44,999 nucleotides of DNA, from contig CAYUER010000003.1 of assembly GCA_964443785.1 (NCBI GenBank), positions 1 to 44,999 on the forward strand. Direction: 5' to 3'. Shown here in pieces: positions 1 to 40,813 of the stretch (the first letter of the stretch is position 1; each line of letters starts with the position of its first letter). The notes under the pieces were generated by a model. It made no database searches and was not told where the DNA came from. It saw only the letters and a program-made list of their open reading frames with translations. The stretch comes from an uncultured Gammaproteobacteria bacterium. GTDB taxonomy: Bacteria; Patescibacteriota; Patescibacteriia; UBA1558; GWA2-36-10. The position numbers and the translations under genes are program-made.

Positions 1-3000
1 AGGATAAGATTGTCTCAATGGATCAAATTCAAAATTGCTATAAAGAGTATAGCTCTTGCCAGTATCCTGCAACATATAGCCATAAATACTGGAGTTATCC
101 AAACAAGAAAATACTCTAGTGACTTCATTCCAACAGGTTTCTGGATCAGCTCCTTCCTCGGCGCAGGTAGAAAATCTATTGATCGGATCCACTGGCAAGC
201 TCTGTCGCAAATCACTAGCCAAGGTCTGCTGCCAAGAAGGCCACTTGCTATTGGTCTGACCAGGTACAAAAGTGCCGGCATTGAGCTGCGGATAATAGCT
301 CACGCAAGTACCAGCAGGAGCACACTGACTATCTTGAGTACAGCTGATTTGACTATTGTGACTACAGGCTCGATGAGCTAGACCATACTGACTCAAATAT
401 TTTTTCACTGGCAAGAGATCAGTCAAACGCTTGACATCACGCCTGAGCTTCAAAGATTTTGATAAGCAAATTTCATTGGCTGGGCAGTCAAAATCTGTAG
501 AGCAAGCCTCTCTAATACCATCCCCTGCTGAATCAGTACATAAATTATCATCATTATGGACAGTGAAGTTAGAGTTAGTATTTAACTGAAAATTAGCCAC
601 CAACTGATCATAGATAGCCTTGGTCTGCGCATGAGCTCCCAAGCTATAAGAAATAATATAAATATTGGTATAAAGAGTATCGCCGTTCAAATTGGCTGCA
701 GAAATATAGGTAGTATTGCCAACTTGCATGGCCTCATAGCCATCGACCGTCAACATCTTACCAAGAGTGTCACCTGGAAATTGCGACTTGTACCACTCAC
801 TGACGCTCAAGTGTTCTGCATTAGGCATGACTCTAAAGGCGATAAAGTTGACTGCACTGGCACTGGAGACATTAACCTCTACTGTACTATCACCAGAGTT
901 CAGAGAGCTGCCATCGCTACCTACTGATATGACCCGATAATTGTAAGTACCACTAGTATCGACATTATCAACATAAGAAGTAGCGTTTGAGTTTGCCGGC
1001 AAAGACTGGATAGTTGACCAAGTACTGGCACTATTTAATTTTCTCTGTACTTCAAAATGATCAATATTGGTACGCACGCGTGGCAAAGCAAAATTGACTG
1101 TCACTACCGCGCCGTTGACTCCGACTGTATTCAAACTTGGTGCTTCATAATCAGGCAAAGTCAATTCTCCATCAGTCTGACCAAGGGCGCTTGGTACACT
1201 AGTGAATTGGCTAAAGTTCTGCCAAATATTTACACCTTTGTTTGACTGCTTAGGCAAAGCTGTATAGGCTAAGCTACCCAAAGAATTATTTTGCGCTGTA
1301 GTACTATTGACTCTGACTGTAAATAAATATTCACCAAGATTATTGGTATTGCTACTCAAAACTGGCGGATAGCTCAAATACGGCAAGGAAGGACTATTGT
1401 CTGTAAATTTGGCACAATAATAAGTAGAAAAATTCAAACCTTTGAGAGTTTCTACCCAAGGAAAAGCACTGAGACTTGGCCAAGGATTTTGACACAAGAA
1501 GACAGTGACAGCGATACTAGCTGTAGCCGAGCCCAGATTGACTCCTGAGATGGTACCAGAGACACGGACTGAGACACGAGCCTTACCATTTTCACCAGCC
1601 TTGACTGTGACCTCTGGTGATGTCTTGTCAGTCAAGATGACACTACTTTCATCTGGACTAGCTTGCCAAGAATAATTCAAACCGGCACTAGAAAGAGTAG
1701 TAGCCTGACGACTATAAGCGGTCACTGAATATTTGTGTTGATTGCCAGGATCAGTGGATTGATCGCCTTCACAGTTATTACCACCGCAGGTGAACCAATC
1801 AGCTTCTGGATCAGTGATCAAATAACTAATCTTACAAATCTCATCACCAGTAGTAAAGAGCCAATTGTTAGCTCGTAACTCTGCTGGGCTAGTAGCCAAA
1901 TCCAAAGGCATGCCATTGGCACTGACTATACCAGTTGGTGGCACGCCATTGCCCAAAGAAATCTTATACTGCGTACTGACTGCTAATAAATCTGTCGGTG
2001 AAAAAACTGCCTTGGTTTGGTTGTTGAGACGATCAGCGTCCAAGCCATCAACACTAGAAAAGGCAAAAGTGCCTGCTATCTCTGCACCAGTGGCATTGTT
2101 GTATAGTTTCAAATTATTCCTGATGCTATCCAGATTCATTTTTTCACTAAACACTAGCTCAATCGCTACATTGCGACACTGAGCAGTCGCTCCTGGTGGC
2201 TGAGGACTATAGCTCTCTATGTAGGGATCGGTGTAAGCTGGCAAATTGAGTGTGATATTGAGACGACCAGGTGTTGCATCAAAACTACTAGCGCCATTGG
2301 TCACTCGGTTTTGAATATAAGCAAAATCTCCAGTATTGGCTGTCATGGCTACCAAGGCTGTTGTGTTTTTGTTAGTCAGGGAGCCTGAAATACTAGCCAC
2401 TGAGACATTACTCGATGACCAAGCATAAGAACAATTGCGACAATTGACCCTGATGTTACCACAAGAAATAGTATTACTGGTAGTCTCGACTGTGTAGCCG
2501 ATACGCTGATTACGCGCATGGGCTAGAAAATTAGCTTGCGATACTGTGGCCCCAGTGACTGCGCACTCCTCTGAACCAACTATAAAATACCACTCAAAAT
2601 TTTGGTCTAAACTATTACCATGAATATTTTTGACCGCAGTGGATATAGTCACTTTATATCTATGGCCAGTGACCAGAGCGTTGTGATTGATCTCCCAAAC
2701 ACTCTCACTACTAGCATTATTAGTATCATTCAAAATACTACTCACGCCTGTAGACACTGTAGAGCTATCAGCTGTATCAACTATATTAATATTAGTATTG
2801 TTAACTGTGCTGATATCTAGCGGTGTATTAAAATGCATACCAATCACAGCATTGGTGCAGGCATTGCCACAATCCGGATAATGCTCTGTCACTAACAAGC
2901 CCTTGAGATAGCTATTGTAGTCAATCAATAAATCCGTATTAGCACTAGCTGACCTAGTGCTCTGGGTAATGGTACAAGCAATGCTTGTCTGCCCAGTCGG

Positions 3001-5958
3001 TGGTACTACATTAGCAGTGGTAAAGGCGGCTACTTCTTGATTGCCAGTGGCAATGGTAGCAATATCCTCATCACTAGAGCTCCATTGATAGTTACAATTA
3101 TTACACACTAATCTTTGGGCGCCACAAATATTGACATCAGCTGTTGGCGCGGCACTATAATTGACCTGCTGACCAGGACGACGAGCTGTATAATTCAAAG
3201 GAGTGATGCTCACGCCAGTAAATTCACAAATACCTTGACCAACTGTAAATTGCCAATAATAAGGACTTTCCAAAACTTCCAACTCCTCACTCTGTATACT
3301 TTGACTGACCGTGACAGCATAAGTATGATTCAATTCTAGGGTGCCTCTATAGTCCAACACTACCGTCGCTGGCACATCTGCTCCAGGATTTTCAGTCAAA
3401 ATCGCAGCGTCAATAGTCACATCTACTGGACTAGCTGGATTAGTAATATCTACAATACTATAATTATCAACATCAGTAGCTGTATTGTTTTCCAATAAAA
3501 CATTGAAGCCCACTCCAATTTGCGCATTGCCACAAGAGCTATCGCAGGCTGGCCAATGATCTACTACTTCCAAAGGTGTCACTGGTGTGGGCACTGTACT
3601 AAAATTCCAGCCATAAGTACACATGCGCGTATTAGTACAGCTAGCAGCGCAATAATTACCAATAGCATTTTGGCAACAAAGCTGGCCAGAAGGACAATTA
3701 CTATCACGACTGCAAGAGCCGACACTAAAATTAAGCTCATTGGAAGCCACGCCAGCACTCGAAACTACTGCTACTGGACCAGTCTCAGCGCCCTCAGGCA
3801 CCCGCGCATATAGCGCGCTATTATTACCCCAAGAATTTGCGGGGCTAGTTTGATTGTTATAAAAACGAATTTGCCCAGCACTGGTCCCAAAATTATCACC
3901 AAAAAAACTCACTTGCGTAGTATTTTTTTGCCCATTATCTGGATAGATAGCGCACAAGCCTGGTCTCAAAGTATCAGTATTGACGGCAAAAGGCTTGGTA
4001 TTGCTTTCCTTGCTATCAGAGCGCACGACTTTGATATCATAGCTAGTACCGCTACTCAAAGCATCTGGCACTTTGACCATGATGCGACTATTTGACCAAA
4101 TAGAGTTGGAGCACTGCAAAGGAAAATCAAAACTAGCTGGTGTAGTACCAAAAAAGACATTACCACTCAGCCTCGTATTGCCAAAATTAGTACCATTGAT
4201 CGTCACATAGGTAGCAACTGGACCAGCTGTCGGTGTGATATTGACTATTTCTGGGTCACCAGCCAAAGCCTCAGTGATATTAAAAGGATAAGGATTGCTC
4301 AAGACAGTACCAGCATTGAGCTGAACACCGACCAAGCCAGTGCGCAAATTTGGCACATTGGAAATAGCCGTGTCATTGCTTTCATTAATATCAGTATTAT
4401 AGCCAGCTATACCACCGTATTTTACTACATTTTCTGTGGCATCGATAAAATTCACTCCCGTGATCGTCACCTCTGTATTCAAAGCGCCTAGTCCAGGAGT
4501 AGCTGCACAAATACCAGGACGCGCAATATTATTGACATCAAAAGCCACACTATTACTTGGGACAGTGGCGTTATTGGGATACACGCGGACTGAGTAATTT
4601 TCTGTCAGAGATAGGCCAGTCGGCACGCCAACTATAATATCCGTATCTGTCCAGAGATTTTGACACAGCGGATTCATCTCAGTAGAGTTTGGCCATAAAG
4701 CTCTAGTCTCTACACCTGCTTGGTCAACAAACTCCACATGACCAGTGCCCATAGAGCTACCAAAACCAGAACCTTGGATGGTGATCAAGCTTTTTTCTTG
4801 ACCATTATCAGGCGTGATATAGCTAATATGTGGCCCGCTAAATTCTGAACCACCACTACCACTACAGATATTGGCTGGACGACATTCGTTGCGACTGCAA
4901 CAAACTGAAGTACAGCTACTATCACAAGTGACGGAAAAATATTCTGAATCAGTCGGATCCAGAGGAAAAGCATCATTGGAAATATTGATGTAGCTAGCTA
5001 AAGCATTGCTGGGTATATCGAGTCTAATCTCGGTATCAGCCCAGCCAGTAAAAGGCACATCGATCTGAGCAGCGGCTGTACCATTCCAACCAGTCATATT
5101 GATAGCTCGATTACCTGTAGTGCCAAAATTGATACCCTTGATCACTACACCAGTACCCCTAGCACCACTATCTGGCTCAATACAAGCAATACTCGGGCCA
5201 GCTGTCCCGGCGCTTACTACAAAACCAGCTATTTCATCACTGCGTGTGTCATTTGCTACTGTAATAGAGTGCGTACCAACTGCCAAGCTAGGCACAATCA
5301 CTTTGACTGAATAATAAGTATTGCCATCTCTGGTAAACTGCTGACGCCAATAAGGTGTACCACAAGATACGAGACTCGCTGCCTCACCGCCAATGCTGAC
5401 GCGACTAGTGGCAGTATCAACATAATCGCCAAAATTCCAGCCAGAAATAGTGATATAGCCACCCACTGGCTTGGAAGATGGTCTGTATTTACAAATGCTC
5501 ATTTCACCGGAGCTGGTCGGTGGTGGACAAGCGACAACGCCAGTATAATCACCGCCACCGCTGTCGCCACCCCCATCACTGCTACCATCTCTCAAAACAT
5601 TGTCATAGAGATTGCCAATGACAAAATTAGTAATAGCATAAGAAGCAAAAATAATTGCCAAGCCAATAGTAGCTGAAATCAAGATTTTTTTGGCTTTATC
5701 AATTTGGTCGCGATTACCGCGTGAGCTAAACCAGAGCCAACCAGCGTACAAAGCCAAGAGTATGGCAATACCTCCTAGAAAATATAAGACAGTATTTACT
5801 ATGCCAGTCACAATATCAAACAAATCTCGGCTACCACTAGCAGTCACGAGACCACCCAAGACTTCGGTGCCAAATTCTTCACTTTGAGCCATTGCCCGCT
5901 CAGTCTGCCCGACTAGCAGATATATGAGAGCGCTCATGTATGGCAATATTTTTTTCAT
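1..5958 (-). CDS. Giant secreted/surface protein, at least 1986 aa, with the 3' end beyond the window. It has an N-terminal TrbC/VirB2-like (T4SS-pilin-like) signal peptide plus two-helix module, six IPT/TIG-like repeats, Cys-rich linkers, alternating SbsA-type and Big_2-type Ig-like domains, and an FN3-like domain.
   Basis: The ORF is absent from the supplied track because it has no stop in the window. My hand translation of the minus strand from the ATG at 5958-5956 stays open to nt 1 (5958 nt = 1986 codons, and the frame ends exactly at nt 1). The N-terminus reads MKKILPYMSALIYLLVGQTERAMAQSEEFGTEVLGGLVTASGSRDLFDIVTGIVNTVLYFLGGIAILLALYAGWLWFSSRGNRDQIDKAKKILISATIGLAIIFASYAI, closely matching the head of the 544-aa neighbour. 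Six copies of the motif G-x-x-(V/I)-(T/S)-(I/F)-x-G-x-(N/G)-F-(G/I) are present: GYITISGWNFG, GVVIKGINFG, SLITIQGSGFG, EVTITGVNFI, YVTINGTNFG, QVSFFGDNFG. Big_2-like WSSS..(I/V)A(T/S)I motifs also occur. No minus-strand fragment in this frame is listed in the track, which it would be if a stop interrupted the ORF. Confidence 0.8.
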   Translation of the reverse strand, partial: MKKILPYMSALIYLLVGQTERAMAQSEEFGTEVLGGLVTASGSRDLFDIVTGIVNTVLYFLGGIAILLALYAGWLWFSSRGNRDQIDKAKKILISATIGLAIIFASYAITNFVIGNLYDNVLRDGSSDGGGDSGGGDYTGVVACPPPTSSGEMSICKYRPSSKPVGGYITISGWNFGDYVDTATSRVSIGGEAASLVSCGTPYWRQQFTRDGNTYYSVKVIVPSLAVGTHSITVANDTRSDEIAGFVVSAGTAGPSIACIEPDSGARGTGVVIKGINFGTTGNRAINMTGWNGTAAAQIDVPFTGWADTEIRLDIPSNALASYINISNDAFPLDPTDSEYFSVTCDSSCTSVCCSRNECRPANICSGSGGSEFSGPHISYITPDNGQEKSLITIQGSGFGSSMGTGHVEFVDQAGVETRALWPNSTEMNPLCQNLWTDTDIIVGVPTGLSLTENYSVRVYPNNATVPSNSVAFDVNNIARPGICAATPGLGALNTEVTITGVNFIDATENVVKYGGIAGYNTDINESNDTAISNVPNLRTGLVGVQLNAGTVLSNPYPFNITEALAGDPEIVNITPTAGPVATYVTINGTNFGNTRLSGNVFFGTTPASFDFPLQCSNSIWSNSRIMVKVPDALSSGTSYDIKVVRSDSKESNTKPFAVNTDTLRPGLCAIYPDNGQKNTTQVSFFGDNFGTSAGQIRFYNNQTSPANSWGNNSALYARVPEGAETGPVAVVSSAGVASNELNFSVGSCSRDSNCPSGQLCCQNAIGNYCAASCTNTRMCTYGWNFSTVPTPVTPLEVVDHWPACDSSCGNAQIGVGFNVLLENNTATDVDNYSIVDITNPASPVDVTIDAAILTENPGADVPATVVLDYRGTLELNHTYAVTVSQSIQSEELEVLESPYYWQFTVGQGICEFTGVSITPLNYTARRPGQQVNYSAAPTADVNICGAQRLVCNNCNYQWSSSDEDIATIATGNQEVAAFTTANVVPPTGQTSIACTITQSTRSASANTDLLIDYNSYLKGLLVTEHYPDCGNACTNAVIGMHFNTPLDISTVNNTNINIVDTADSSTVSTGVSSILNDTNNASSESVWEINHNALVTGHRYKVTISTAVKNIHGNSLDQNFEWYFIVGSEECAVTGATVSQANFLAHARNQRIGYTVETTSNTISCGNIRVNCRNCSYAWSSSNVSVASISGSLTNKNTTALVAMTANTGDFAYIQNRVTNGASSFDATPGRLNITLNLPAYTDPYIESYSPQPPGATAQCRNVAIELVFSEKMNLDSIRNNLKLYNNATGAEIAGTFAFSSVDGLDADRLNNQTKAVFSPTDLLAVSTQYKISLGNGVPPTGIVSANGMPLDLATSPAELRANNWLFTTGDEICKISYLITDPEADWFTCGGNNCEGDQSTDPGNQHKYSVTAYSRQATTLSSAGLNYSWQASPDESSVILTDKTSPEVTVKAGENGKARVSVRVSGTISGVNLGSATASIAVTVFLCQNPWPSLSAFPWVETLKGLNFSTYYCAKFTDNSPSLPYLSYPPVLSSNTNNLGEYLFTVRVNSTTAQNNSLGSLAYTALPKQSNKGVNIWQNFSQFTSVPSALGQTDGELTLPDYEAPSLNTVGVNGAVVTVNFALPRVRTNIDHFEVQRKLNSASTWSTIQSLPANSNATSYVDNVDTSGTYNYRVISVGSDGSSLNSGDSTVEVNVSSASAVNFIAFRVMPNAEHLSVSEWYKSQFPGDTLGKMLTVDGYEAMQVGNTTYISAANLNGDTLYTNIYIISYSLGAHAQTKAIYDQLVANFQLNTNSNFTVHNDDNLCTDSAGDGIREACSTDFDCPANEICLSKSLKLRRDVKRLTDLLPVKKYLSQYGLAHRACSHNSQISCTQDSQCAPAGTCVSYYPQLNAGTFVPGQTNSKWPSWQQTLASDLRQSLPVDPINRFSTCAEEGADPETCWNEVTRVFSCLDNSSIYGYMLQDTGKSYTLYSNFEFDPLRQSYP

Positions 5959-5994
5959 GCTATATTTTTATTTTATTTTTTTAAAAAAATTAAA

Positions 5995-7629
5995 CTACTC
6001 TGCTGGGATCTGACAAGAATCACCATCACAAACTGGCCTGCCAGATGGATCTACTGTATCACACTCACAATTTGCGCCCTCACAACGGCAAGGATACCAA
6101 CAGTTTTGGTTGTTATCCATGATACCAGAAGTAGAAGTAGCCAAATAATCAGTACTGACATCAAAACGCTCGTGGTGTATATTGATCAGATTATTATCTT
6201 TGCCGTCAGCATCACCCAAGCGTAGCCAGTAATTCACTGGTGTATTAGCGCCTTTGAATAATTTAATATTAGTAGAATTAATAGAGCTAGACATCAAAGT
6301 CTCATCAAAGGTCATCCTGACTGGCTGAGACAAAGGAAAATCATTGACTGGACTCATATTGACCATCTTGGGTGCAGTGATATCAATAGTATTGAGAGTT
6401 TGAAAATTCCAAACATAATCAGCCGTCAAAGCATTGCCGACCATATCCTTGATATTGGTCGTGACCGTGCCCACAAAATCTTCTGGACCAGTCAGACAAA
6501 ATACATCAAGACCACAAGAATTTTGAGCACACAAAGTACTAGGTATAAACTCGACTGTCCGATATTGATTAGAAATGACATAGCGACCAGCGTCACTTTG
6601 CTCAGCACCAGCAGCATCTTGGTAGACCAGCTTGATATTGGAATATCCTGGTACTACACCAGAAGCCAAAGTGGGGTTGACTGCTTCTGAAAAATTAACC
6701 TGCACTATGGTATTGCGAGGTGACTGAGTATTGATCTTGGGGCGGACTGATACTACGCGTGGAGGCGTATTGTCAGAATAGGTACCGACTGTAAAATACC
6801 AGCTATAAGAACCAAAATTAAAGGCTTGTCGATCATCAGCCGTTCTGACATTGGCCAAAGTGATTTGATATTTAGTGTCTCTAGTCTGTTCGCCCAGTAA
6901 ATAAGTGCCACTAGTAGCGTCACCATAAGGATTGAATTCAAAAAGCTTAGGATCATCAGGATTGTAAGTGACCTTGATATCAGCGAGATTGACAGTGGGT
7001 TCACTAGCTTTGTGTAGACGAATATTCAAAGTATTGATCGGACAAGTTCTAGGATTAGTACCAGTACAATCAGAACTACCCGCATTGACAATGGTGTCAA
7101 TCTTCATTGGCTCTTTGAAAGTGATGTAAATATTGGTATTTCTCGGTATACCTTTGGCATTTGGCTCTGGATAATGATTTTCGATCACTCCTCCACCCAG
7201 ACCTATACCACCGCCATATTGAGGATCGCGCGTACCGTTTTCTAAATCATAAAAAGCCCTTTGGATAGCATCTTTGAAAAGCCAATTGACTATGGCATAT
7301 GAAGAAAAGATAATCGCCAAACCAATAGTAGCTGAAATCATGATTTTCTTGGCTTTATCAATACCGTCTTTATTGCCCCGTGAGCTAAACCAGAGCCAAC
7401 CAGCATAGAGAAAAAGTAAGACCGCAATAGCACCCAAAAAATAAAGGGCTGTATTGATGATGCCGGTCACAATGTCAAACAAGTCTCGACTACCACTAGC
7501 AGTGACCAAGCCACTCAAGGCATCTGTGCCAAAATCTTCAGCCAATTGAGCTGAGGCCAGATTTGGCAACAAAAAAATAACTGACACAAGACCAAAAATA
7601 AGGGCAGTTATTTTTTTTCGTATAAGCAT
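5995..7629 (-). CDS. Pilin-headed surface protein (544 aa): a TrbC/VirB2-like N-terminal module, SbsA-type Ig-like domains and a Cys-rich C-terminal tail.
   Basis: Complete ORF with ATG at 7629. It has a signal-peptide-like N-terminus (LPNLASAQ) followed by two hydrophobic helices around WLWFSSRGNKDGIDKAKK. The Ig-like (SbsA/Big_5-type) pattern PPRVVSVRPK...VQVNFSEAVNP and APKMVNMSP...VRMTFDETL is present. The last ~40 aa contain 9 Cys. Confidence 0.85.
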   Translation of the reverse strand: MLIRKKITALIFGLVSVIFLLPNLASAQLAEDFGTDALSGLVTASGSRDLFDIVTGIINTALYFLGAIAVLLFLYAGWLWFSSRGNKDGIDKAKKIMISATIGLAIIFSSYAIVNWLFKDAIQRAFYDLENGTRDPQYGGGIGLGGGVIENHYPEPNAKGIPRNTNIYITFKEPMKIDTIVNAGSSDCTGTNPRTCPINTLNIRLHKASEPTVNLADIKVTYNPDDPKLFEFNPYGDATSGTYLLGEQTRDTKYQITLANVRTADDRQAFNFGSYSWYFTVGTYSDNTPPRVVSVRPKINTQSPRNTIVQVNFSEAVNPTLASGVVPGYSNIKLVYQDAAGAEQSDAGRYVISNQYRTVEFIPSTLCAQNSCGLDVFCLTGPEDFVGTVTTNIKDMVGNALTADYVWNFQTLNTIDITAPKMVNMSPVNDFPLSQPVRMTFDETLMSSSINSTNIKLFKGANTPVNYWLRLGDADGKDNNLINIHHERFDVSTDYLATSTSGIMDNNQNCWYPCRCEGANCECDTVDPSGRPVCDGDSCQIPAE

Positions 7630-8473: not shown

Positions 8474-8502
8474 ATAATGCCAAATTTTAAAGCAAAAGTC
8501 AA
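8474..8502 (-). promoter_or_regulatory. Putative sigma70-type promoter for rpsU (TTGACT-17 nt-CATTAT)
   Basis: On the minus strand, TTGACT (8502-8497), a 17-nt spacer, then CATTAT (8479-8474). It lies upstream of rpsU and downstream of the hisS terminator. Confidence 0.35.
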
Positions 8503-8513
8503 CCCTGTTAAAT

Positions 8514-8532
8514 AGACCCGCGAGGCGGGTCT
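8514..8532. repeat. GC-rich 8-bp-stem hairpin (AGACCCGC-gag-GCGGGTCT) in the hisS-rpsU spacer
   Basis: A perfect inverted repeat read directly from the sequence. It belongs to a set of GC-rich palindromes that stand out in the AT-rich intergenic DNA. Confidence 0.5.
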
Positions 8533-8581
8533 CCTGTGTATAAATATTTTGGCTACTAAAGATATTTTTCAAACAAAAGAA

Positions 8582-8612
8582 CAGCCCAGTCCCGCACTGC
8601 GGGACTGGGCTG
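8582..8612 (-). terminator. Rho-independent terminator downstream of hisS
   Basis: A perfect 14-bp stem, CAGCCCAGTCCCGC-act-GCGGGACTGGGCTG. On the minus strand it is followed by the T-rich run TTCTTTTGTTTG. It lies about 22 nt after the hisS stop. Confidence 0.65.
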
Positions 8613-9961: not shown

Positions 9962-10621
9962 TTAATATTTTGGCAAATTAAAAGTGCTGATCTTATTAAA
10001 AGGCCAACCCCTAAACCAAGCCTTGCCGATAATAGCATCATCGCTGACTGGTCCAAAACGACGAGAATCAAAACTATTGGTGCGATTATCACCCATGACA
10101 TAGTATTCTTTATCTCCCAAAGTAATGGCATCAAAAGTTTCTAAGCCAAAATCTTCAATATAAGATTCGGCTAATTCTTGATCATTGACATAGACCCGGC
10201 CTTTTTTGATCTCGATCTTTTCACCTGGCAATCCGATCACTCTCTTGATAAAATAAACTTGTGGATTGAGCGGATCTTTCAAAATTACCACTTCTCCTCT
10301 AGTGGGATCACCAAAACGATAGCTGATTTCATTGATAATCAAATATTCACGATCATGAAAATTGGGCTCCATCGAAGCACCTTTCACAATAAAAGGCTGC
10401 ACCAAAAAATATCTAATAGGAACAATAATAGCCAAAGAAATAATAATCACCTTGACTGCCTCAAAAATAAACAAACCAAATTTTTTAGCACTACGAGCCA
10501 AGACACTCTCCTCTTCGCCTTCATATTGCTCCTGGGCAAAATCATCCTCCTCCATCACATCAGCAGAATTATCGTTGTTCTCTGGATTTATTTTATTGTC
10601 TGGCAAATTATTTATTGGCAT
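9962..10621 (-). CDS. lepB: Signal peptidase I
   Basis: Boxes GASMEPNF (catalytic Ser), KRVIGLPGE and GDNRTNSFDSR, plus one TM helix. The track ORF extends to 10696, but that extension overlaps a TTGCTT-17-TATAAT promoter, so the ATG at 10621 (MPINNL...) is the likely start. Confidence 0.85.
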   Translation of the reverse strand: MPINNLPDNKINPENNDNSADVMEEDDFAQEQYEGEEESVLARSAKKFGLFIFEAVKVIIISLAIIVPIRYFLVQPFIVKGASMEPNFHDREYLIINEISYRFGDPTRGEVVILKDPLNPQVYFIKRVIGLPGEKIEIKKGRVYVNDQELAESYIEDFGLETFDAITLGDKEYYVMGDNRTNSFDSRRFGPVSDDAIIGKAWFRGWPFNKISTFNLPKY

Positions 10622-10646
10622 AAATTTAGCTACTTTTAGTAAAATC

Positions 10647-10675
10647 ATTATACACAATGACCTTAGTAAAAGCAA
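10647..10675 (-). promoter_or_regulatory. Putative promoter for lepB-hisS (TTGCTT-17 nt-TATAAT with TG extension)
   Basis: On the minus strand, TTGCTT (10675-10670), a 17-nt spacer ending in TG, then TATAAT (10652-10647). It lies 25 nt upstream of the ATG at 10621. Confidence 0.45.
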
Positions 10676-10763
10676 ATAATAAGCCCTAGGGTTCATATTT
10701 GACTTTTGGGTCTATTATTATTATAATACAGGAACTTTATTCACCAATGAGTGTTTTTTTGTA

Positions 10764-19237: not shown

Positions 19238-21013
19238 TTATTTCTTTAAAAATATACGCCAATTATTTTTATGATACACTTCTTGCCAATCTTGTGTGCT
19301 GATATTTTTTTTGGGCAAATGAATGACCAAATCTTCACCGCCATTGGGATATCGGTCTGCCCAAAAAAATAAAGAAAAATATCCATCATTATTATCAGCT
19401 TGATCATCATACAAAAGCAAGCTATCAATGCGCGGCTCTTTACCTTGATTGATAATATTCATAAAATCTACAGGACTTTGGGCTTCAGACATTGCCCTGA
19501 CTTCAGCTAGACGCTGACTATACTGCACAGCCTGGTGACTAAAATGCGGACTAAAAGCAATATAATAAGACAAAGGTAAATAAGCATTGAGATTGGCTGT
19601 GCCACTAGTCAGCCAGGTGCGTGATTGATAATCAGGTACAGCTTGCCTAATATCATCAGCTAATTTTGGCGCCCTACTATCTGCCTGCAAATCTTTTTCA
19701 ATCTGTCTAATAATCACTGGGTCATCGAGCCAACGAACCAAAGGAAGCTGCGAAAAAAGCATGATCAAAATAATGACCAGCAAAATATTCGATTGCTGAC
19801 TGTGTCTTTTTTTAATGAGATCAAAAACATACAAAGACATCATAGTCAAACCCACGGCCAAACTAGCTCCCCCCAAAAACATAAAAGGTTTGTAGGCTTG
19901 CACTGGATGATAGCCGACTAAATATAAAACTACGCTAAACAATTGATAAAAATACGAAAATATTAAAACCCCCGCTATATTTTTGATAGCTATATTTTTT
20001 TGATAAAAATATACTAAACCCACTACTCCCCCTAACAACAATAAACCTCTCCAAGAAACACTAGACCAAGGAATAAAGGTAAATAAATCAGAAAAAATAA
20101 AAAATTTAGCCTGCCAATTTTCTATACCGTATTTGAAAAAAGATAATAGCAAGGGTAGCCAAAAAATAGCCGATACCAGAACCATCAATAGACCATTGAT
20201 AAAAAACTTTTTAAGCTGATTTTTTTTATCTTGAGCTAATAAAGCTGTGCAAAAAAGAAAAGGCAATAAAATAAACCACCAAAAATAAAACAACAAAAAC
20301 AACAAACCAGCGCTAATACCTAAAAATAAATAATATTTTTTATCCCAGTGCTTGACGGTCGATAGGGCTGACCAAAAAATCAACCAAATAACCGACAACA
20401 AGGCAGCCAAGGCTTCGTAGGGCTTGAGTAACAAAGCATCAAAATCAGTGATCAATAATAAAAAAATAGGTAATAAAGCAGCAAAGTAAGGATGGCTAAT
20501 GATCGGTAATTTCTCTTGATTGGCTGGAAAAATTTTTGACCAAAATAATCTCTGCCAATAATAAGTACCCCAAAACCAAAGAATGAGAGTACCCATGATA
20601 CCAATTTTAGCAGCAGCTATACCACTATGCACGAAAAATTTAGCAGCCAAGCCAGTCACCCAAAAATACAGGGGCGGATAAAAATTGGGTAGCCAATGAT
20701 AATAAAAATCTTTACTTGCATCACCAAACATCACGTGACCCAAATAGCCAGACACTAAAAGCTCATCGCCAACTGTGCCCCACCACATGCTTTTTAAGTC
20801 CTTGGCCAAAACAACATAAAACAAAACAATCAAGCCACCAAAAATACTCAAAAAATAAATTGGTCTATATTTGCGCCAATAACCAATAGCAAAAAACAAA
20901 ACAAAAATAGCTAGCAAAAATTTACTCAAAGCTAAAATATTTAAAGTATTCAGACTAATAATCTGTTCCATTTTTGAGGTAAAAAACATGAACTTGAAAT
21001 AAATCAAATTCAT
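19238..21013 (-). CDS. Large polytopic membrane protein, possibly a GT-C-type glycosyltransferase, with a soluble C-terminal domain of about 150 aa
   Basis: 591-aa ORF with more than 12 hydrophobic segments rich in aromatic residues, followed by a hydrophilic C-terminal domain. The functional call rests on architecture only. Confidence 0.45.
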   Translation of the reverse strand: MNLIYFKFMFFTSKMEQIISLNTLNILALSKFLLAIFVLFFAIGYWRKYRPIYFLSIFGGLIVLFYVVLAKDLKSMWWGTVGDELLVSGYLGHVMFGDASKDFYYHWLPNFYPPLYFWVTGLAAKFFVHSGIAAAKIGIMGTLILWFWGTYYWQRLFWSKIFPANQEKLPIISHPYFAALLPIFLLLITDFDALLLKPYEALAALLSVIWLIFWSALSTVKHWDKKYYLFLGISAGLLFLLFYFWWFILLPFLFCTALLAQDKKNQLKKFFINGLLMVLVSAIFWLPLLLSFFKYGIENWQAKFFIFSDLFTFIPWSSVSWRGLLLLGGVVGLVYFYQKNIAIKNIAGVLIFSYFYQLFSVVLYLVGYHPVQAYKPFMFLGGASLAVGLTMMSLYVFDLIKKRHSQQSNILLVIILIMLFSQLPLVRWLDDPVIIRQIEKDLQADSRAPKLADDIRQAVPDYQSRTWLTSGTANLNAYLPLSYYIAFSPHFSHQAVQYSQRLAEVRAMSEAQSPVDFMNIINQGKEPRIDSLLLYDDQADNNDGYFSLFFWADRYPNGGEDLVIHLPKKNISTQDWQEVYHKNNWRIFLKK

Positions 21014-27326: not shown

Positions 27327-27728
27327 TTATGATTGAAAATTATCTGATTGATTGTGCTTGAATAATAAAAGTAAAAATTCCAAAGCGGCCGCAGCCAATA
27401 TCAGCAAAGACATATTCCACCAAGTCAAAATACGGATGGATTGTAAGAGCAAAGTCACTACCAAAGCGGCCGCGACAATGATCGCCTGACGAAATGACTC
27501 ACTCACTACATCACGCAAAATCATACGTTTGCGCACAAAAAATAAACGCACCACAAAACCAATGATTGCCAGACTACCAGAAACCGCTAAAAACAAAGCT
27601 ACATAAAAAAGTAAAAATATCACCCAATTGGCTTCTTGGGGGTTAAAATTAAAAATAATAGTAAAAAAACCCACCCAAGCAACGATGGTGGCTAGACCCA
27701 TGATAATACTATAATTTTTGGCAGTCAT
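27327..27728 (-). CDS. Small hypothetical membrane protein (4 predicted TM helices)
   Basis: 133-aa hydrophobic ORF, tightly packed between pheS and the DUF721-like gene. Confidence 0.6.
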   Translation of the reverse strand: MTAKNYSIIMGLATIVAWVGFFTIIFNFNPQEANWVIFLLFYVALFLAVSGSLAIIGFVVRLFFVRKRMILRDVVSESFRQAIIVAAALVVTLLLQSIRILTWWNMSLLILAAAALEFLLLLFKHNQSDNFQS

Positions 27729-31133: not shown

Positions 31134-31685
31134 TTAATCAACGACGAGGGCCTGGCAATCTGCCAGTTTGATGGAAAGAACCTCTCCCCGATTGGCCTCG
31201 GGGATAAAGAGGCTGGTGACCTGGAAACTGCCGTCCAGCGCCGCCTCCAGGTGAGCCTGCTCACGCTGGGAAAGCTGGCCGTACCGCAAAAGCTGCTGAG
31301 CCTTGTCAAGGACTGTTTCCTTGAAAAGTCGTTGAGCTGACCTGAGGTCAGCAGCGTGAGCTTCCTTCTCCTCCTCCAAGGAGCCGAAAGCCTGACTGCC
31401 TCCGTAGGCCAGGCAATTCTGGTGATGAGCCAAGAACAAGTTCATAGCCCCGTGATTGGCGATCGTGATCCTGACCAGGTCCTCGGTCACCTCTTCGGTG
31501 ACATGGCAACCGCGTCGGTGGCGCAGAGTAGCTCCTGGCCGGTTGTAGGGGTCGATCATGGGCCCACCAGCCAAGCGACGCACCACTGCCAAGGTGGTGT
31601 CGGTCCAATGACCGTCGATGCAGCCAATGACTGCCCCATGGTAAACCTTGTGACTCAAATTCCTTCCTCCTTGCTGAGCTTCCAT
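31134..31685 (-). CDS. GC-rich homolog of the adjacent 149-aa protein, with a beta-carbonic-anhydrase-like CxDxH...HxxC signature. Function unknown.
   Basis: The sequence MEAQQGGRNLSHKVYHGAVIGCIDGHW...RPGA...LFLAHHQNCLAYGGSQAFGSLEEEKEAH aligns to ...LAVIKCVDFRF...WPGSA...LLLWHWDCGAYGGSSNFASAQEEEAAY of ORF 31792-32241. Two hand-counted 60-nt lines gave 58% and 65% G+C. An alternative start is the TTG at 31658, preceded by AAGGAGGAAGG and a 7-nt spacer. The track start at 31754 is the TTG of a TTGACA promoter box. Confidence 0.75.
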   Translation of the reverse strand: MEAQQGGRNLSHKVYHGAVIGCIDGHWTDTTLAVVRRLAGGPMIDPYNRPGATLRHRRGCHVTEEVTEDLVRITIANHGAMNLFLAHHQNCLAYGGSQAFGSLEEEKEAHAADLRSAQRLFKETVLDKAQQLLRYGQLSQREQAHLEAALDGSFQVTSLFIPEANRGEVLSIKLADCQALVVD

Positions 31686-31725
31686 TGGTATATGGGAGAA
31701 TAGCTCCCGTGAAAAAGGAAAACAT

Positions 31726-31761
31726 ATTATGGACCAAAAATAAAAAAATGTCAATAGACAT
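31726..31761 (-). promoter_or_regulatory. Putative promoter of the GC-rich gene (TTGACA-17 nt-CATAAT). The -35 lies inside the near-palindrome ATGTCTATTGACAT.
   Basis: On the minus strand, TTGACA (31754-31749), a 17-nt spacer, then CATAAT (31731-31726). The 14-bp palindrome at 31761-31748 has one central mismatch. Confidence 0.4.
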
Positions 31762-31791
31762 TTTTTTATATAATACTTATTTTAAAATATT

Positions 31792-32241
31792 TTATTCCAA
31801 AATTGTATATTCCAAACCCTGTGGCACAGCCTTGGAATAAGCCAAGACAATTTCTAAATCAGTAGGTAAATCTGGACTCAACATATCTCGGACAGTACGC
31901 AAATCTTTTTGATAGGCAGCCTCTTCTTCTTGAGCTGAAGCAAAATTGCTACTACCACCATAAGCACCACAATCCCAGTGCCAGAGTAAAAGCAATTTTT
32001 TGACATGATGCAAATTTTTAGAAACTGCAACCATCTTTTCAGCAAAAGACATTTTAAAACCATTGTTTTTCAAAACATCTTTGGCGCTGCCTGGCCAAGC
32101 ATAGAGATCAAAATTTTTGTAACCCAAGTGCTTCTCTACAAACTCCTGATCTGATTCTCTAAAGCGAAAATCAACACATTTGATGACTGCCAAGGGGCAT
32201 TCATGTTCAGCGAGCAAATCGTTTGGTACAATGTATCCCAT
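31792..32241 (-). CDS. Small protein with a beta-carbonic-anhydrase-like zinc-ligand signature (C-V-D-F-R ... H-W-D-C-G-A). Native-composition copy.
   Basis: 149-aa ORF containing VIKCVDFRF, about 23 aa later WPGSA, and about 37 aa later LLLLWHWDCGAYGG. This spacing mimics the beta-CA CxDxR / HxxCG arrangement. AT-rich codon usage matches the rest of the window. Confidence 0.55.
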   Translation of the reverse strand: MGYIVPNDLLAEHECPLAVIKCVDFRFRESDQEFVEKHLGYKNFDLYAWPGSAKDVLKNNGFKMSFAEKMVAVSKNLHHVKKLLLLWHWDCGAYGGSSNFASAQEEEAAYQKDLRTVRDMLSPDLPTDLEIVLAYSKAVPQGLEYTILE

Positions 32242-40201: not shown

Positions 40202-40813
40202 ATGTCATCAGAAAAATTCAAAGACAGCAATACAACTGAAAAAGATCAGCTACTCGATCAACTATTGGCTTTGGACAAAAATAACCCTGCTTATGAACAG
40301 GAAAAAGATATTATAGAAAAAGAGCTCAACAAAATATCTCAAAATCCAGAAGAAACTATCAAGGCTCTCAATCGACGCGCCGAAATAAAACTATCCCCCG
40401 TTGATAAATATCAAGCCGCCGAAAAATACCAAGAACTCGAGGACGCCAAAGCTGTCGATCAACTCTTGGGTGAAATAAGTAGCATTGCGCCTACAAATTT
40501 TGCTGAGCAAAAACCAAACTACGCCGAGCAGGCGGCTCTATACTTTCGCCCCCTGAGCAACACTGCCCAAGCAGTCAAAAAGGCCATCCGTGCTTTTAAT
40601 TGGCGATCGTTCCGACAAATCCCTAAGGTCGAAAAAGAAAATTTATGCGCTCAAATAGACAGAATAGTGATGGAGGCCAAAGTCGAAGCTGCCAAACAAT
40701 ACCAAGAAGCCCAAGCCGATACTATCACTATCAATCGCGTCATCAACGAGGCTAGATACCAGATCCAAAAAATAGCCGATGATCGGCACATCAAAATACC
40801 TGAAGAATATTAA
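40202..40813 (+). CDS. Hypothetical acidic, helix-rich protein
   Basis: 203-aa ORF starting 10 nt after the trmH-like stop. No motif was recognised. Confidence 0.55.
   Translation: MSSEKFKDSNTTEKDQLLDQLLALDKNNPAYEQEKDIIEKELNKISQNPEETIKALNRRAEIKLSPVDKYQAAEKYQELEDAKAVDQLLGEISSIAPTNFAEQKPNYAEQAALYFRPLSNTAQAVKKAIRAFNWRSFRQIPKVEKENLCAQIDRIVMEAKVEAAKQYQEAQADTITINRVINEARYQIQKIADDRHIKIPEEY

What the first reader, a model, noticed from the sequence alone, without database searches (positions are those of the whole stretch)
1..5958. The apparently ORF-free first 6 kb is one uninterrupted giant ORF (at least 1986 codons) for a pilin-headed, repeat-rich surface protein
Seen in sequence: the supplied track shows only short ORFs here, mostly on the + strand. 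The minus strand, however, reads open from the ATG at 5958 to nt 1. The ORF has no stop in the window, which explains why it is missing from the track. The product starts with a signal-peptide-like segment and two hydrophobic helices flanking WLWFSSRGNRDQIDKAKK. Six IPT/TIG-like repeats with the G-x-x-VTI-x-G-x-NFG motif follow (about 5470-3780). Cys-rich linkers come next, for example CSRDSNCPSGQLCCQNAIGNYCAASCTNTRMC at about 3720-3622. Then there are three alternating SbsA-type / Big_2-type Ig-like units, an FN3-like unit (about 1152-905), and a further Cys-rich region. Established knowledge: TrbC/VirB2-type pilins consist of a signal peptide plus two hydrophobic helices, and IPT/TIG, Big_2 and FN3 arrays are typical of adhesins. 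Inference: a pilin-type head is fused to an ectodomain of more than 1850 aa. This could be a cell-surface fibre or anchor for attachment to a host or partner cell, and I cannot place the architecture in any characterised system.
Basis: partly seen in the sequence, partly recalled or inferred. Interest (0 to 1): 0.75.

Follow-up and report, generated by a model that had tools for sequence, protein, structure and literature searches.

The report
Giant pilin-headed Patescibacteria surface protein
The first 6 kb of the window encodes the front ~60% of a roughly 3,300-residue cell-surface protein of an ultra-small (Patescibacteria/CPR) bacterium, held in the membrane by a conjugative-pilin-like helical hairpin; it is real and belongs to a very large, catalogued but functionally unstudied family, so it is interesting but has many precedents.

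Summary
The minus strand is open from the ATG at 5958 to nt 1 (1986 codons; chance about 1e-52), and the frame is cut only by the window edge. Orthologues at 53-57% identity are 2,737-3,350 aa long. The N-terminal ~120 aa form a signal peptide plus a two-helix hairpin that just reaches the Pfam T4SS_pilin (PF18895) cut-off and also matches a mycoplasma-ICE pilin-like family. TIG (5 by Pfam, 6 by motif) and Big_5 (3) arrays are confirmed. The Big_2 label is not supported and the FN3 label only weakly.

PF18895 heads are the VirB2-like pilins of the Patescibacteria type IV secretion system, which is essential in Southlakia. The head profile matches about 84,000 representative proteins, from 125 to more than 3,500 aa long.

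New here: the giant always follows a ~540-aa paralogue whose head co-evolves with its own. This pair, usually followed by two TSP3-type membrane proteins, keeps one chromosomal position (LepB-HisRS-YqeY upstream; YbeY-FtsA-FtsZ downstream) across deep lineages, with no T4SS genes nearby.

Best reading: a Sec-exported, hairpin-anchored extracellular fibre for cell contact. Incorporation into a T4SS pilus (a "modular VirB2 pilin") is possible but untested.

The parts
1..5958 (-). Giant ORF, 1986 codons, truncated at the window's left edge. It is the 5' ~60% of a gene whose orthologues encode 2,737-3,350 aa.
   Evidence: Open frame. 53-57% identical over the full length to P0001, P0002 and P0003.
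5887..5958 (-). Sec-type signal peptide, aa 1-24 (MKK, hydrophobic core, A-M-A|Q signal peptidase I site).
   Evidence: Ala24 is invariant in 27 aligned heads. The segment resembles the PelB leader in PDB constructs (weak, E = 0.7). No prepilin G|F..E motif.
5731..5823 (-). Hairpin helix 1 / TM1, aa 46-76.
   Evidence: Kyte-Doolittle segment. AF2 helix 44-78, with block-mean pLDDT 86-93 over residues 51-80. Inside the PF18895 match at aa 46-113.
5686..5730 (-). Conserved basic loop, aa 77-91 (SSRGNRDQIDKAKKI), net charge +3, predicted cytoplasmic.
   Evidence: G81 is invariant and A89/K90 are nearly invariant. Charge count. AF2 turn at 79-82.
5608..5685 (-). Hairpin helix 2 / TM2, aa 92-117.
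   Evidence: Kyte-Doolittle segment 91-117. AF2 helix 83-123. G99 invariant.
5530..5607 (-). Acidic Gly-rich linker, aa 118-143, net charge -4, joining the head to the ectodomain.
   Evidence: Sequence. An equivalent Gly/Pro-rich linker follows TM2 in all aligned family members.
3724..5511 (-). Array of six IPT/TIG-type beta-sandwich units, aa ~150-745.
   Evidence: Pfam TIG, 5 stretches, E = 6e-28. Six motif occurrences.
3619..3714 (-). Cys-rich knot, aa 749-780 (7 Cys).
   Evidence: Marginal WAP four-disulfide-core hit, 23.0 bits against a cut-off of 20.8. Cys positions.
1495..3606 (-). Three Big_5 (SbsA-type) Ig-like domains alternating with three unassigned ~105-115-aa Cys-containing units, aa ~785-1488.
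   Evidence: Pfam Big_5, 3 stretches, 2e-18, best at aa 1243-1370. The intervening units get no significant family hit. Boundaries from landmarks.
874..1161 (-). Probable FN3-like beta-sandwich, aa ~1600-1695.
   Evidence: Only a weak FN3 model hit, E = 0.04. Orthologues carry bona fide fn3 domains further downstream.
1..873 (-). Family-specific ~290-aa Cys-rich domain, aa 1696-1986, with 11 invariant Cys.
   Evidence: Alignment A2. Present in most giant homologues. AF2 pLDDT 85, pTM 0.78. No PDB structural neighbour. Also found as standalone secreted Patescibacteria proteins.
5995..7629 (-). Upstream paralogue, 544 aa: the same pilin-like head plus three Big_5 domains. It is the conserved partner of the giant.
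   Evidence: Pfam T4SS_pilin 23.7 bits and Big_5 2e-20. Its head is 75-83% identical to the giant's head, depending on the span compared. DNA repeat 5633-5881 / 7292-7540 at 79% identity. The mid-then-giant pair recurs in 10 loci.
9962..10696 (-). Signal peptidase I (LepB), a conserved neighbour and the candidate enzyme for cleaving the head's signal peptide.
   Evidence: Pfam Peptidase_S26, 5e-47. Conserved upstream in all syntenic loci. The functional link is inferred.
8474..8612 (-). Strong terminator after hisS (8612-8582) and promoter-like sites (8511-8474) ahead of rpsU. No terminator was found between yqeY, the 544-aa gene and the giant, suggesting an rpsU-yqeY-mid-giant transcription unit.
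   Evidence: Consensus scan only. Intergenic gaps of 26 and 36 nt.

Best explanation
The ORF is the N-terminal ~60% of a ~3,300-aa extracellular protein of a Patescibacteria (CPR) bacterium.

Shown:
- It starts with a Sec signal peptide carrying an AxA site.
- A ~95-aa two-helix hairpin follows. It is a member or close relative of the PF18895 'T4SS_pilin' (VirB2-like) family.
- An acidic Gly-rich linker follows, then at least 13 beta-sandwich units (6 TIG, 3 Big_5, 3 unassigned, 1 FN3-like), Cys-rich knots and a family-specific 290-aa Cys-rich domain.

Inferred mechanism:
- The protein is exported by Sec and cleaved after Ala24 by signal peptidase I, whose gene is a conserved neighbour.
- The hairpin sits in the cytoplasmic membrane with the basic loop inside and both ends outside.
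- The disulfide-rich ectodomain therefore projects from the cell as a fibre tens of nanometres long.
- It works together with the adjacent ~540-aa paralogue, whose head co-evolves with its own. It probably also works with the two single-pass TSP3-repeat membrane proteins encoded just downstream in the orthologous loci.
- Together these form a vertically inherited envelope module whose fast-evolving ectodomain mediates contact with a host or partner cell or a surface.

Whether the head merely anchors the protein or is extracted and polymerised by the T4SS is left open; see the first rival.
For: ORF and topology. In particular Ala24, G81 and G99 are invariant; net charges are -3 outside, +3 in the loop and -4 after TM2; and 51 Cys lie in the ectodomain.

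Head family:
- Pfam PF18895: 26.8 bits against a cut-off of 26.6 on the head alone.
- NCBIfam NF045849, a pilin-like conjugal transfer protein: E = 7e-7 over 71 of 80 profile positions.
- The head is 56% identical to a small 136-aa pilin that lies in a four-gene pilin array.
- The head profile matches 83,952 representative proteins.
- AF2 gives a confident helical hairpin.
- hhalign gives an in-register alignment to authentic VirB2, P = 0.0034.

Ectodomain.

Full length and synteny. Orthologues are 2,737-3,350 aa. The LepB-HisRS upstream side and the mid-giant pair are shared by eight loci; the downstream TSP3, unknown protein and YbeY-FtsA-FtsZ genes are seen where the contig extends that far (L009 differs downstream). 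This covers lineages whose HisRS is only 41-65% identical. The mid-giant pair itself is seen in 10 loci.

Conservation. The head is better conserved than the ectodomain: 81/56, 48/35, 39/27.5 and 44/27%. Heads of the two paralogues are sisters within four deep lineages, bootstrap 92-100.

Expression of the family: T4SS-pilin-domain proteins are among the most highly expressed unknown genes in host-attached Patescibacteria (PMC10936435).
Against: - No experimental data exist for any giant member.
- Adhesion is inferred only from the domain types and the fast ectodomain divergence.
- The C-terminal ~1,300 aa, the likely business end, lie outside the window and are known only from orthologues.
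- The Pfam score is at threshold. The classical TrbC/VirB2 model scores only 12.8 bits.
- Foldseek finds no specific pilin match for the hairpin; the best conjugative pilin is at rank 37, E = 4.6.
- The very strong residue-level conservation of the head, and its co-evolution between paralogues, exceed what a passive membrane anchor needs. This hints at more than anchoring.
Confidence: 0.7

Rival explanations
1. Modular T4SS pilin. The VirB2-like head is a genuine pilin module. After membrane insertion, the Patescibacteria T4SS extracts it and co-polymerises it with small PF18895 pilins, at low stoichiometry or at the tip or base of the pilus. The pilus then carries the giant ectodomain as its adhesin. 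The ~540-aa paralogue with the matching head would be a second decorated subunit. This would supply the T4SS adhesin that surveys failed to find.
For: - By profile, the giant's head cannot be told apart from the heads of small pilins, and it is 56% identical to an array pilin.
- Specific residues (G62, Y71, G73, G81, A89, K90, G99) are conserved as in small pilins.
- Heads of the two paralogues co-evolve within lineages without recent gene conversion: 39% synonymous codon differences and a longest identical run of 26 nt. This fits subunits that must pack together.
- A flexible Gly-rich linker directly follows TM2 in all members.
- Proteins made of 2-17 chained hairpin modules exist, which suggests that the hairpins pack side by side.
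- The literature reports that the T4SS and its pilin array are essential and that 'no adhesins such as PrgB were detected' (PMC10633639, PMC12102498).
- Modular type IV pilins provide a precedent in another filament class (PMC8179133).
Against: - No VirB4, VirB6, VirD4, TrsD or PrgI gene lies within 10 kb in eight loci, nor anywhere in the 45-kb window.
- No pilus made of PF18895 proteins has been visualised or purified, according to the papers read.
- A 3,000-aa appendage on a subunit of a tightly packed helical filament is sterically demanding.
- Homology to structurally characterised VirB2 is only weakly supported.
- Multimer modelling was not available.
Confidence: 0.3
2. Structural envelope protein. 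The pair forms an S-layer-like or wall-spanning scaffold that is part of the basic cell envelope or division apparatus of these monoderm ultra-small cells, not a host-binding adhesin.
For: - The gene sits at one conserved locus in each contig examined, between cell-wall/secretion genes (LytR-CpsA-Psr, LepB) and ybeY-dagK-ftsA-ftsZ, across deep lineages.
- There is a possible operon with rpsU, which would imply high expression.
- Big_5 is the SbsA-type S-layer Ig-like domain.
- The partner membrane proteins carry Ca-binding TSP3 repeats.
Against: - The ectodomain diverges much faster than housekeeping proteins (27-35% against 52-65% for HisRS) and varies in domain content between lineages: VWA, DUF4215, LamG, PKD, fn3. 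This is more typical of interaction surfaces.
- S-layer proteins are usually much smaller and lack transmembrane hairpins.
- Synteny with division genes may be historical rather than functional.
Confidence: 0.2
3. The 'pilin head' is a compositional false positive. On this view it is just a signal peptide plus generic hydrophobic helices, unrelated to conjugative pilins.
For: - The Pfam score barely reaches the cut-off, and is below it in the full-length context (21.5 bits).
- PDB sequence and fold searches give no pilin hit.
- F-pilin TraA does not align.
Against: - Position-specific conservation across 27 heads, including invariant Gly and Ala and the loop motif GN..KI.KAKK.
- An independent NCBIfam pilin-like family hit, E = 7e-7.
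- Family members hit both PF18895 and PF04956.
- An in-register alignment to VirB2.
- 56% identity to a small pilin in a pilin array.
Confidence: 0.04

Closest known systems
VirB2-like pilins (Pfam PF18895 T4SS_pilin) and pilin arrays of the Patescibacteria T4SS (Southlakia epibionticum SEML1_0006-0019; phylum-wide survey, PMC12102498)
   Same: The same N-terminal module: signal peptide, two hydrophobic helices, a short conserved basic loop. Both occur in the same phylum and as adjacent paralogous genes with divergent sequences. The head is 56% identical to a bona fide small array pilin.
   Different: Described pilins are treated as small proteins (about 100-150 aa), often near virB4. This protein carries more than 1,850 further residues (about 3,200 in the orthologues). 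It sits in a conserved housekeeping locus with no T4SS genes within 10 kb. It is paired with a ~540-aa decorated paralogue. None of the papers read mentions such fusions.
Modular type IV pilins of monoderm type IV pili (Streptococcus sanguinis PilB/PilC; PMC8179133, PMC9934059)
   Same: The concept is the same: a filament-subunit module at the N-terminus is fused to functional adhesive modules (vWA, lectin-like), so that the filament displays an adhesin.
   Different: This is a different filament superfamily. Type IV pilins have a class III signal peptide processed by a prepilin peptidase, plus a single long alpha-1 helix. That motif is absent here. The appended modules are also an order of magnitude smaller than in this protein.
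Mbov_0395 / MMCAP2_0565 family pilin-like conjugal transfer proteins of mycoplasma ICEs (NCBIfam NF045849)
   Same: The head aligns over 71 of 80 profile positions, E = 7e-7. These are monoderm MPF-FATA-type systems, the class from which the Patescibacteria T4SS is reported to derive (PMC12102498).
   Different: The score of 28.8 bits is below the equivalog cut-off of 40. Those proteins are small and encoded within ICE conjugation modules.
Classical VirB2/TrbC/TraA conjugative pilins (Pfam PF04956; A. tumefaciens VirB2, F TraA)
   Same: Signal peptide, a two-helix hairpin, both termini outside and the loop inside. An in-register hhalign match to VirB2 covers 57 columns at 28% identity.
   Different: The PF04956 score of 12.8 bits is far below the cut-off of 27.9. 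There is no match to TraA. The loop is 8 residues longer. There is no evidence of cyclisation or of lipid-bound pilus assembly.
Giant Ig-repeat adhesins of other bacteria (SiiE, LapA/BapA-type T1SS adhesins; LPXTG-anchored Gram-positive adhesins)
   Same: A multi-thousand-residue string of Ig-like/beta-sandwich domains, presumed to form a long surface fibre.
   Different: The export and anchoring logic is opposite. This protein has an N-terminal Sec signal plus an N-terminal membrane hairpin. The orthologues have no RTX/T1SS C-terminus and no C-terminal LPxTG.

Membership tests
Pfam PF18895 T4SS_pilin (Patescibacteria VirB2-like pilins) | Match to the family HMM at or above the gathering score | tested here: met
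   The head alone scores 26.8 bits against a cut-off of 26.6, E = 5e-6, covering 5-71 of 71 profile positions. It scores 21.5 bits in the full-length context. Most of the Patescibacteria homologues carry a precomputed PF18895 hit. The margin is thin.
Pfam PF18895 T4SS_pilin (Patescibacteria VirB2-like pilins) | Signal peptide followed by two hydrophobic helices joined by a short basic loop | tested here: met
Pfam PF18895 T4SS_pilin (Patescibacteria VirB2-like pilins) | Small protein consisting essentially of the pilin module (as treated in PMC12102498) | tested here: not met
   At least 1986 aa here and 2,737-3,350 aa in the orthologues.
Pfam PF18895 T4SS_pilin (Patescibacteria VirB2-like pilins) | Encoded in or near the T4SS cluster (virB4, trsD, prgI/virB3, virB6) | tested here: not met
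   None in the 45-kb window, nor within 10 kb in L003, L004, L008, L009 and L010. The literature finds pilins near virB4 in only 1,135 of 1,948 assemblies, so this feature is not strictly defining.
Pfam PF18895 T4SS_pilin (Patescibacteria VirB2-like pilins) | Polymerises into a T4SS-dependent pilus | not testable with these tools
   No multimer modelling or experimental data were available.
Classical TrbC/VirB2 pilins (Pfam PF04956) | Match to the family HMM at the gathering score, or significant profile similarity to authentic VirB2/TraA | tested here: inconclusive
   PF04956 scores 12.8 bits against a cut-off of 27.9. hhalign to pTiC58 VirB2 is in register, P = 0.0034, probability 9.5%. There is no alignment to F TraA. 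Foldseek gives no specific hit.
Type IV (T4P/T2SS) pilins, including modular pilins | Class III signal peptide (G|F/M-T/S-L-x-E) processed by a prepilin peptidase | tested here: not met
   The motif is absent from the first 60 residues.
LPXTG sortase-anchored adhesins | C-terminal LPxTG motif plus a hydrophobic tail | tested here: not met
   The window lacks the C-terminus. P0001, P0003, P0008 and P0010 have no LPxTG, and P0002 has only an internal one, none at the C-terminus.
T1SS giant RTX adhesins | No N-terminal Sec signal; C-terminal RTX repeats and a T1SS signal | tested here: not met
   An N-terminal Sec signal peptide is present. The full-length orthologue P0001 has no RTX or haemolysin-type Ca-binding hits.
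IPT/TIG and Big_5 domain-containing surface proteins (domain-level classification) | Significant matches to PF01833 and PF13205 | tested here: met
   TIG at 6e-28 with 5 stretches; Big_5 at 2e-18 with 3 stretches.
   No Big_2 hit at E <= 10 on the isolated units. The FN3-like unit gets only E = 0.04 to PF25059.

The most novel reading that the evidence does not exclude
In Patescibacteria the VirB2-like hairpin is a general surface-display module, and this locus encodes 'modular T4SS pilins'. The T4SS would thread giant and mid-size decorated subunits, whose heads co-evolve so that they can pack together, into or onto a conjugative-type pilus. That would make the essential, enigmatic Patescibacteria T4SS a host-attachment filament whose adhesins are covalently built into pilin subunits. 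No such case has been described for VirB2-type pilins in any bacterium, as far as the papers I could search show.
Probability: 0.3. Interest if true: 0.8.

Novelty: new variant of a known kind. Interest (0 to 1): 0.55.

Why it matters
Patescibacteria make up a large share of bacterial diversity and live attached to host cells. Their T4SS and its VirB2-like pilin array are essential in the one species tested, yet their function is 'completely unknown' (PMC11665869), and surveys found no T4SS adhesin (PMC12102498).

This work shows three things:
- The same pilin head is fused to ectodomains of up to about 3,400 residues.
- A giant plus mid-size pair with co-evolving heads occupies a deeply conserved core-genome locus.
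- The head family spans about 84,000 sequence clusters, with lengths from 125 to more than 3,500 aa.

Together these give a concrete, testable link between the pilin family and cell-surface adhesion. They also warn that published counts of 'VirB2 pilins' probably include many large surface proteins. Finally, the work defines an unnamed, confidently folded 290-aa Cys-rich extracellular domain with no structural neighbour in the PDB.

Tried and rejected
- Extending the contig. The exact 544-aa neighbour is not on record. YqeY leads only to Logan fragments that break inside the 544-aa gene. The GTDB genome scan and the JGI metagenome scan found relatives at up to 56% and 44% identity respectively, but not the source contig. 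The stop codon remains unseen.
- PDB sequence searches. Searches with the head, the head profile and the whole protein found nothing meaningful. The only matches were PelB leaders and a designed helical protein.
- Foldseek of the head model. No significant hit, because a helical hairpin is too generic. The archaeal conjugation pilin 8dfu appears only at rank 37.
- Foldseek of the 290-aa domain. No hit; best E = 0.16 and TM below 0.2.
- hhalign against F TraA. No alignment.
- Alignment-based locus scan.
- Head-only word-indexed search. Only 6 hits because of the index's limited sensitivity. It was superseded by the exhaustive profile search.
- Big_2 and fn3 labels. Tested on isolated units and not supported.
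- The two downstream genes. Tested as possible further pilin-headed proteins and rejected. They are single-pass TSP3-repeat proteins.
- Recent gene conversion as the cause of head similarity in the window. Rejected on codon evidence.
- Supplementary tables of PMC12102498. They give HMM coverage but no protein lengths, so I could not verify whether giants were counted as VirB2.
- F-plasmid and Ti-plasmid INSDC accessions. Absent from the collection; the RefSeq accessions worked.
Full report
**Observation**

The minus strand of nt 1-5958 translates into 1986 codons without a stop. The stop-to-stop frame reaches nt 5967, so the ATG at 5958 lies three codons after the upstream stop. With the local base composition, an open frame of this length has a chance probability of about 1e-52. 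The mechanical ORF list omits it because it runs off the window. That list shows only six ORFs of 81-123 aa there, five of them on the + strand.

**Head**

Residues 1-24 (MKKILPYMSALIYLLVGQTERAMA|Q) have the n-h-c layout of a Sec signal peptide with an AxA site. The Ala at -1 is invariant in an alignment of 27 family heads. The only PDB sequence neighbours of this segment are PelB leaders on nanobody constructs; this is weak, illustrative evidence.

Two hydrophobic helices (aa 46-76 and 92-117) flank the basic loop SSRGNRDQIDKAKKI. Net charges are -3 for the mature N-terminal segment, +3 for the loop and -4 for the Gly-rich linker. By the positive-inside rule the loop is cytoplasmic and both ends are outside. 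That fits an ectodomain with 51 Cys. AlphaFold2 with the family alignment gives a helical hairpin (helices 44-78 and 83-123) with pLDDT above 90 over residues 60-110.

**Which family the head belongs to**

- Pfam T4SS_pilin (PF18895) scores 26.8 bits on the head alone, against a gathering score of 26.6. It scores 21.5 bits in the full protein. Classical TrbC/VirB2 (PF04956) scores only 12.8 bits.
- Independently, NCBIfam NF045849, the 'Mbov_0395 family pilin-like conjugal transfer protein' of mycoplasma ICEs, matches at E = 7e-7 over 71 of 80 positions. This is below its equivalog cut-off.
- A profile-to-sequence comparison with authentic VirB2 of pTiC58 gives an in-register alignment (mature N-terminus, TM1, loop, TM2). 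It covers 57 columns at 28% identity, with pairwise P = 0.0034 and probability 9.5%.
- F-pilin TraA does not align.
- Foldseek of the hairpin against the PDB is non-specific.

I conclude that the head is a member, or a very close relative, of PF18895. PF18895's kinship to classical VirB2 is plausible but only weakly shown here.

**Ectodomain**

- Pfam confirms five TIG stretches (E = 6e-28), and six TIG-type motifs are visible at nt 5463-3889.
- It confirms three Big_5 stretches (2e-18) and gives a marginal WAP-like hit on the Cys-rich linker.
- The FN3-like unit has only E = 0.04.
- The last 291 residues in the window have no Pfam hit, but they form a domain conserved at a similar position in most giant homologues. 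It has 11 invariant Cys and a confident AF2 model (pLDDT 85, pTM 0.78). It has no structural neighbour in the PDB (best E = 0.16).
- The same domain occurs as standalone, signal-peptide-bearing proteins of 250-560 aa. Their source names include Komeilibacteria, Falkowbacteria and Parcubacteria.

**Relatives and full length**

The closest proteins are P0001 (3,278 aa; NCBI 'MAG: Patescibacteria group bacterium', annotated only as a fibronectin type III domain protein), P0002 (2,737 aa) and P0003 (3,350 aa). They are 53-57% identical over the whole query. They continue for about 750-1,360 residues beyond the window's end, with Cys-rich repeats, fn3 domains and other modules.

More distant relatives (24-35% identity, 1,134-3,469 aa) nearly all carry PF18895 together with TIG/Big_5 and variable extras such as VWA, DUF4215, LamG and PKD. 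Hits without the head are TIG/RHS proteins of other phyla.

**How common the head is**

An exhaustive HMMER search with the 27-head profile against 1.84 billion cluster representatives returns 83,952 proteins at E <= 1e-3 and 31,958 at E <= 1e-10. Among the best 150, proteins with a single N-terminal head range continuously from 125 to 3,542 aa, and about 40 exceed 1,000 aa. Others consist of 2-17 tandem head modules. The profile was built from giants, so the ranking is biased towards them. Even so, the architecture is clearly common.

**Genomic context**

The gene directly upstream (5995-7629, 544 aa) has the same head (Pfam 23.7 bits) followed by three Big_5 domains. No other ORF of at least 50 aa in the window matches the head profile.

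The rest of the window is housekeeping: YqeY, S21, HisRS, LepB, LytR-CpsA-Psr, Der, Pth, PepA, L1/L11/NusG, GyrB, PheST, an AddA-like helicase-nuclease, the ATP synthase operon, RmuC, TatD and CvpA. There is no T4SS machinery.

In eight loci the order upstream of the pair is the same: (PepA-Pth-Der-LytR)-LepB-HisRS-S21-YqeY, then a mid-size pilin-head/Big_5 protein and the giant. Where the contig extends downstream, the order continues with a single-pass TSP3-repeat protein, an unknown single-pass protein, then YbeY-DAGK-FtsA-FtsZ-NrdR. L009 instead continues with ClpP and SecDF. This holds in lineages whose HisRS is only 41-65% identical to the window's. The mid-then-giant pair is seen in ten loci. 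None has T4SS genes within 10 kb.

A strong terminator follows hisS and promoter-like sites precede rpsU. No terminator was detected between yqeY, the 544-aa gene and the giant, so they may be co-transcribed. This rests on a consensus scan only.

**Evolutionary pattern**

Across orthologues the 78-aa head core is better conserved than the ectodomain: 81 vs 56%, 48 vs 35%, 39 vs 27.5% and 44 vs 27%. Within every genome the giant's head and the mid protein's head are 59-83% identical, depending on the alignment used. Orthologous giant heads of divergent lineages are only 37-51% identical.

In a neighbour-joining tree the two heads of one lineage are sisters in four deep lineages (bootstrap 98, 100, 92 and 100). 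Within the window's shallow clade they sort by gene type. The ectodomains remain orthologous by type.

In the window the two heads differ at 27 of 69 identical-residue degenerate codons, and the longest identical run is 26 nt. The similarity is therefore not a recent conversion tract. The two heads are either under joint constraint (co-assembly, or a shared partner) or are homogenised episodically.

**Link to small pilins**

P0058 is a 136-aa protein whose head is 56% identical to the giant's. It lies in a tandem array of four small PF18895 genes. This is the arrangement described as 'VirB2 arrays' in PMC12102498.

**Literature**

- PF18895/VirB2-like pilins were surveyed across 3,035 Patescibacteria genomes. 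They were found in 1,948 VirB4-containing assemblies, near virB4 in 1,135, with 441 arrays. 'No adhesins, such as PrgB' were detected (PMC12102498).
- In Southlakia epibionticum the T4SS and its predicted pilins are essential for epibiotic growth (PMC10633639). [quoted passage not shown]
- T4SS-pilin-domain proteins are among the most highly expressed unknown genes of methanogen-attached Patescibacteria (PMC10936435).
- I found no mention of large C-terminal fusions to these pilins. The survey's supplementary table records HMM coverage but not length, so such proteins were probably counted as VirB2. That is my inference.
- 'Modular pilins' are established for type IV pili (PMC8179133), not for VirB2-type pilins.

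**Interpretation**

Shown:
- A real, truncated gene for a Sec-exported protein with a PF18895-type hairpin head and a very large beta-sandwich- and Cys-rich ectodomain.
- A conserved partner paralogue with a co-evolving head.
- A deeply conserved, non-T4SS chromosomal location.

Inferred:
- Cleavage by LepB after Ala24.
- A loop-in, ends-out topology.
- An extracellular fibre with a role in cell-cell or surface contact.

Open: whether the head is a static anchor or is polymerised by the T4SS. I give about 0.7 to the general model (a hairpin-held extracellular fibre acting with its paralogue). Within it, I give about 0.3 to true pilus incorporation and about 0.2 to a primarily structural envelope role.

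**Novelty and score**

The protein is one member of a huge family that databases already tag with PF18895, so it is not categorically new. However, the giant decorated form, its paired paralogue and its conserved core-genome locus are not described in the papers I could search. They bear directly on an acknowledged open question, namely what the essential Patescibacteria T4SS pilins do. I rate it a new variant of a known kind, with interest 0.55.

Noticed in passing
window 5995-7629 (-): A second pilin-headed protein (544 aa; PF18895-like head plus three Big_5 domains) lies immediately upstream of the giant. Its head is 75-83% identical to the giant's. The two heads co-evolve within lineages (sisters in four deep lineages, bootstrap 92-100) without recent gene conversion.
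   Followed up: yes
window 1-873 (-); alignment A2; P0207-P0326: A ~290-aa Cys-rich extracellular domain (11 invariant Cys) has no Pfam model. Its AF2 model is confident (pLDDT 85), yet it has no PDB structural neighbour. It also occurs as standalone secreted proteins of 250-560 aa across Patescibacteria.
   Followed up: partly
L003 19876-21971; L004 13902-16002; L008 19923-22506; L010 19590-21655 (outside the window, just beyond its left edge): Two conserved single-pass membrane proteins with TSP3 (Ca-binding) repeats always follow the giant gene. In most loci ybeY, dagK, ftsA and ftsZ come next. Together with the pilin-headed pair they form a four-gene envelope module.
   Followed up: partly
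P0063, P0064, P0070, P0076 (representative-library hits): Some proteins consist of 2-17 tandem copies of the pilin-like hairpin module, for example 17 modules in 1,775 aa. They could be polyproteins cut by signal peptidase or covalently chained pilins.
   Followed up: no
L012 5491-7517: A tandem array of four small PF18895 pilin genes (243, 108, 136 and 132 aa) sits among polysaccharide-synthesis genes (Wzx/Wzy-type), not next to virB4. One of them is 56% identical to the giant's head.
   Followed up: partly
L008 7138-8004: The YqeY ORF of this distant locus carries a segment matching the pilin-head profile at aa 153-288 (38.6 bits). It may be a YqeY-pilin fusion or an ORF-merging artefact.
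   Followed up: no
L006 (JAZDFP010000012.1) and L007 (CAYZIE010000002.1): These contigs carry the Patescibacteria-type giant gene, and L007 carries the full syntenic locus. Their MAGs are labelled Planctomycetota and Gammaproteobacteria, which probably reflects binning or labelling errors.
   Followed up: no
window 8582-8612 (-) and 8474-8511 (-): A strong intrinsic-terminator-like hairpin (14-bp stem, 11 GC pairs, T-run) lies after hisS. Promoter-like hexamers lie upstream of rpsU. The giant may therefore be co-transcribed with rpsU and yqeY.
   Followed up: partly
window 31134-32241 (-): Two adjacent paralogous ORFs (206 and 149 aa) give weak to moderate hits to Pro_CA_2 (putative carbonic anhydrase). 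They lie directly downstream of the ATP synthase operon.
   Followed up: no
window 19238-21013 (-): A 591-aa membrane protein gives borderline hits to the mycobacterial arabinofuranosyltransferase AftA N- and C-terminal domains (26.0 and 26.5 bits). This is unexpected in a Patescibacterium and may be a cell-wall glycopolymer transferase.
   Followed up: no
window 27327-27728, 40202-40813, 41899-42579, 42581-43354: Four ORFs of 133-257 aa have no Pfam hit at E <= 0.001.
   Followed up: no
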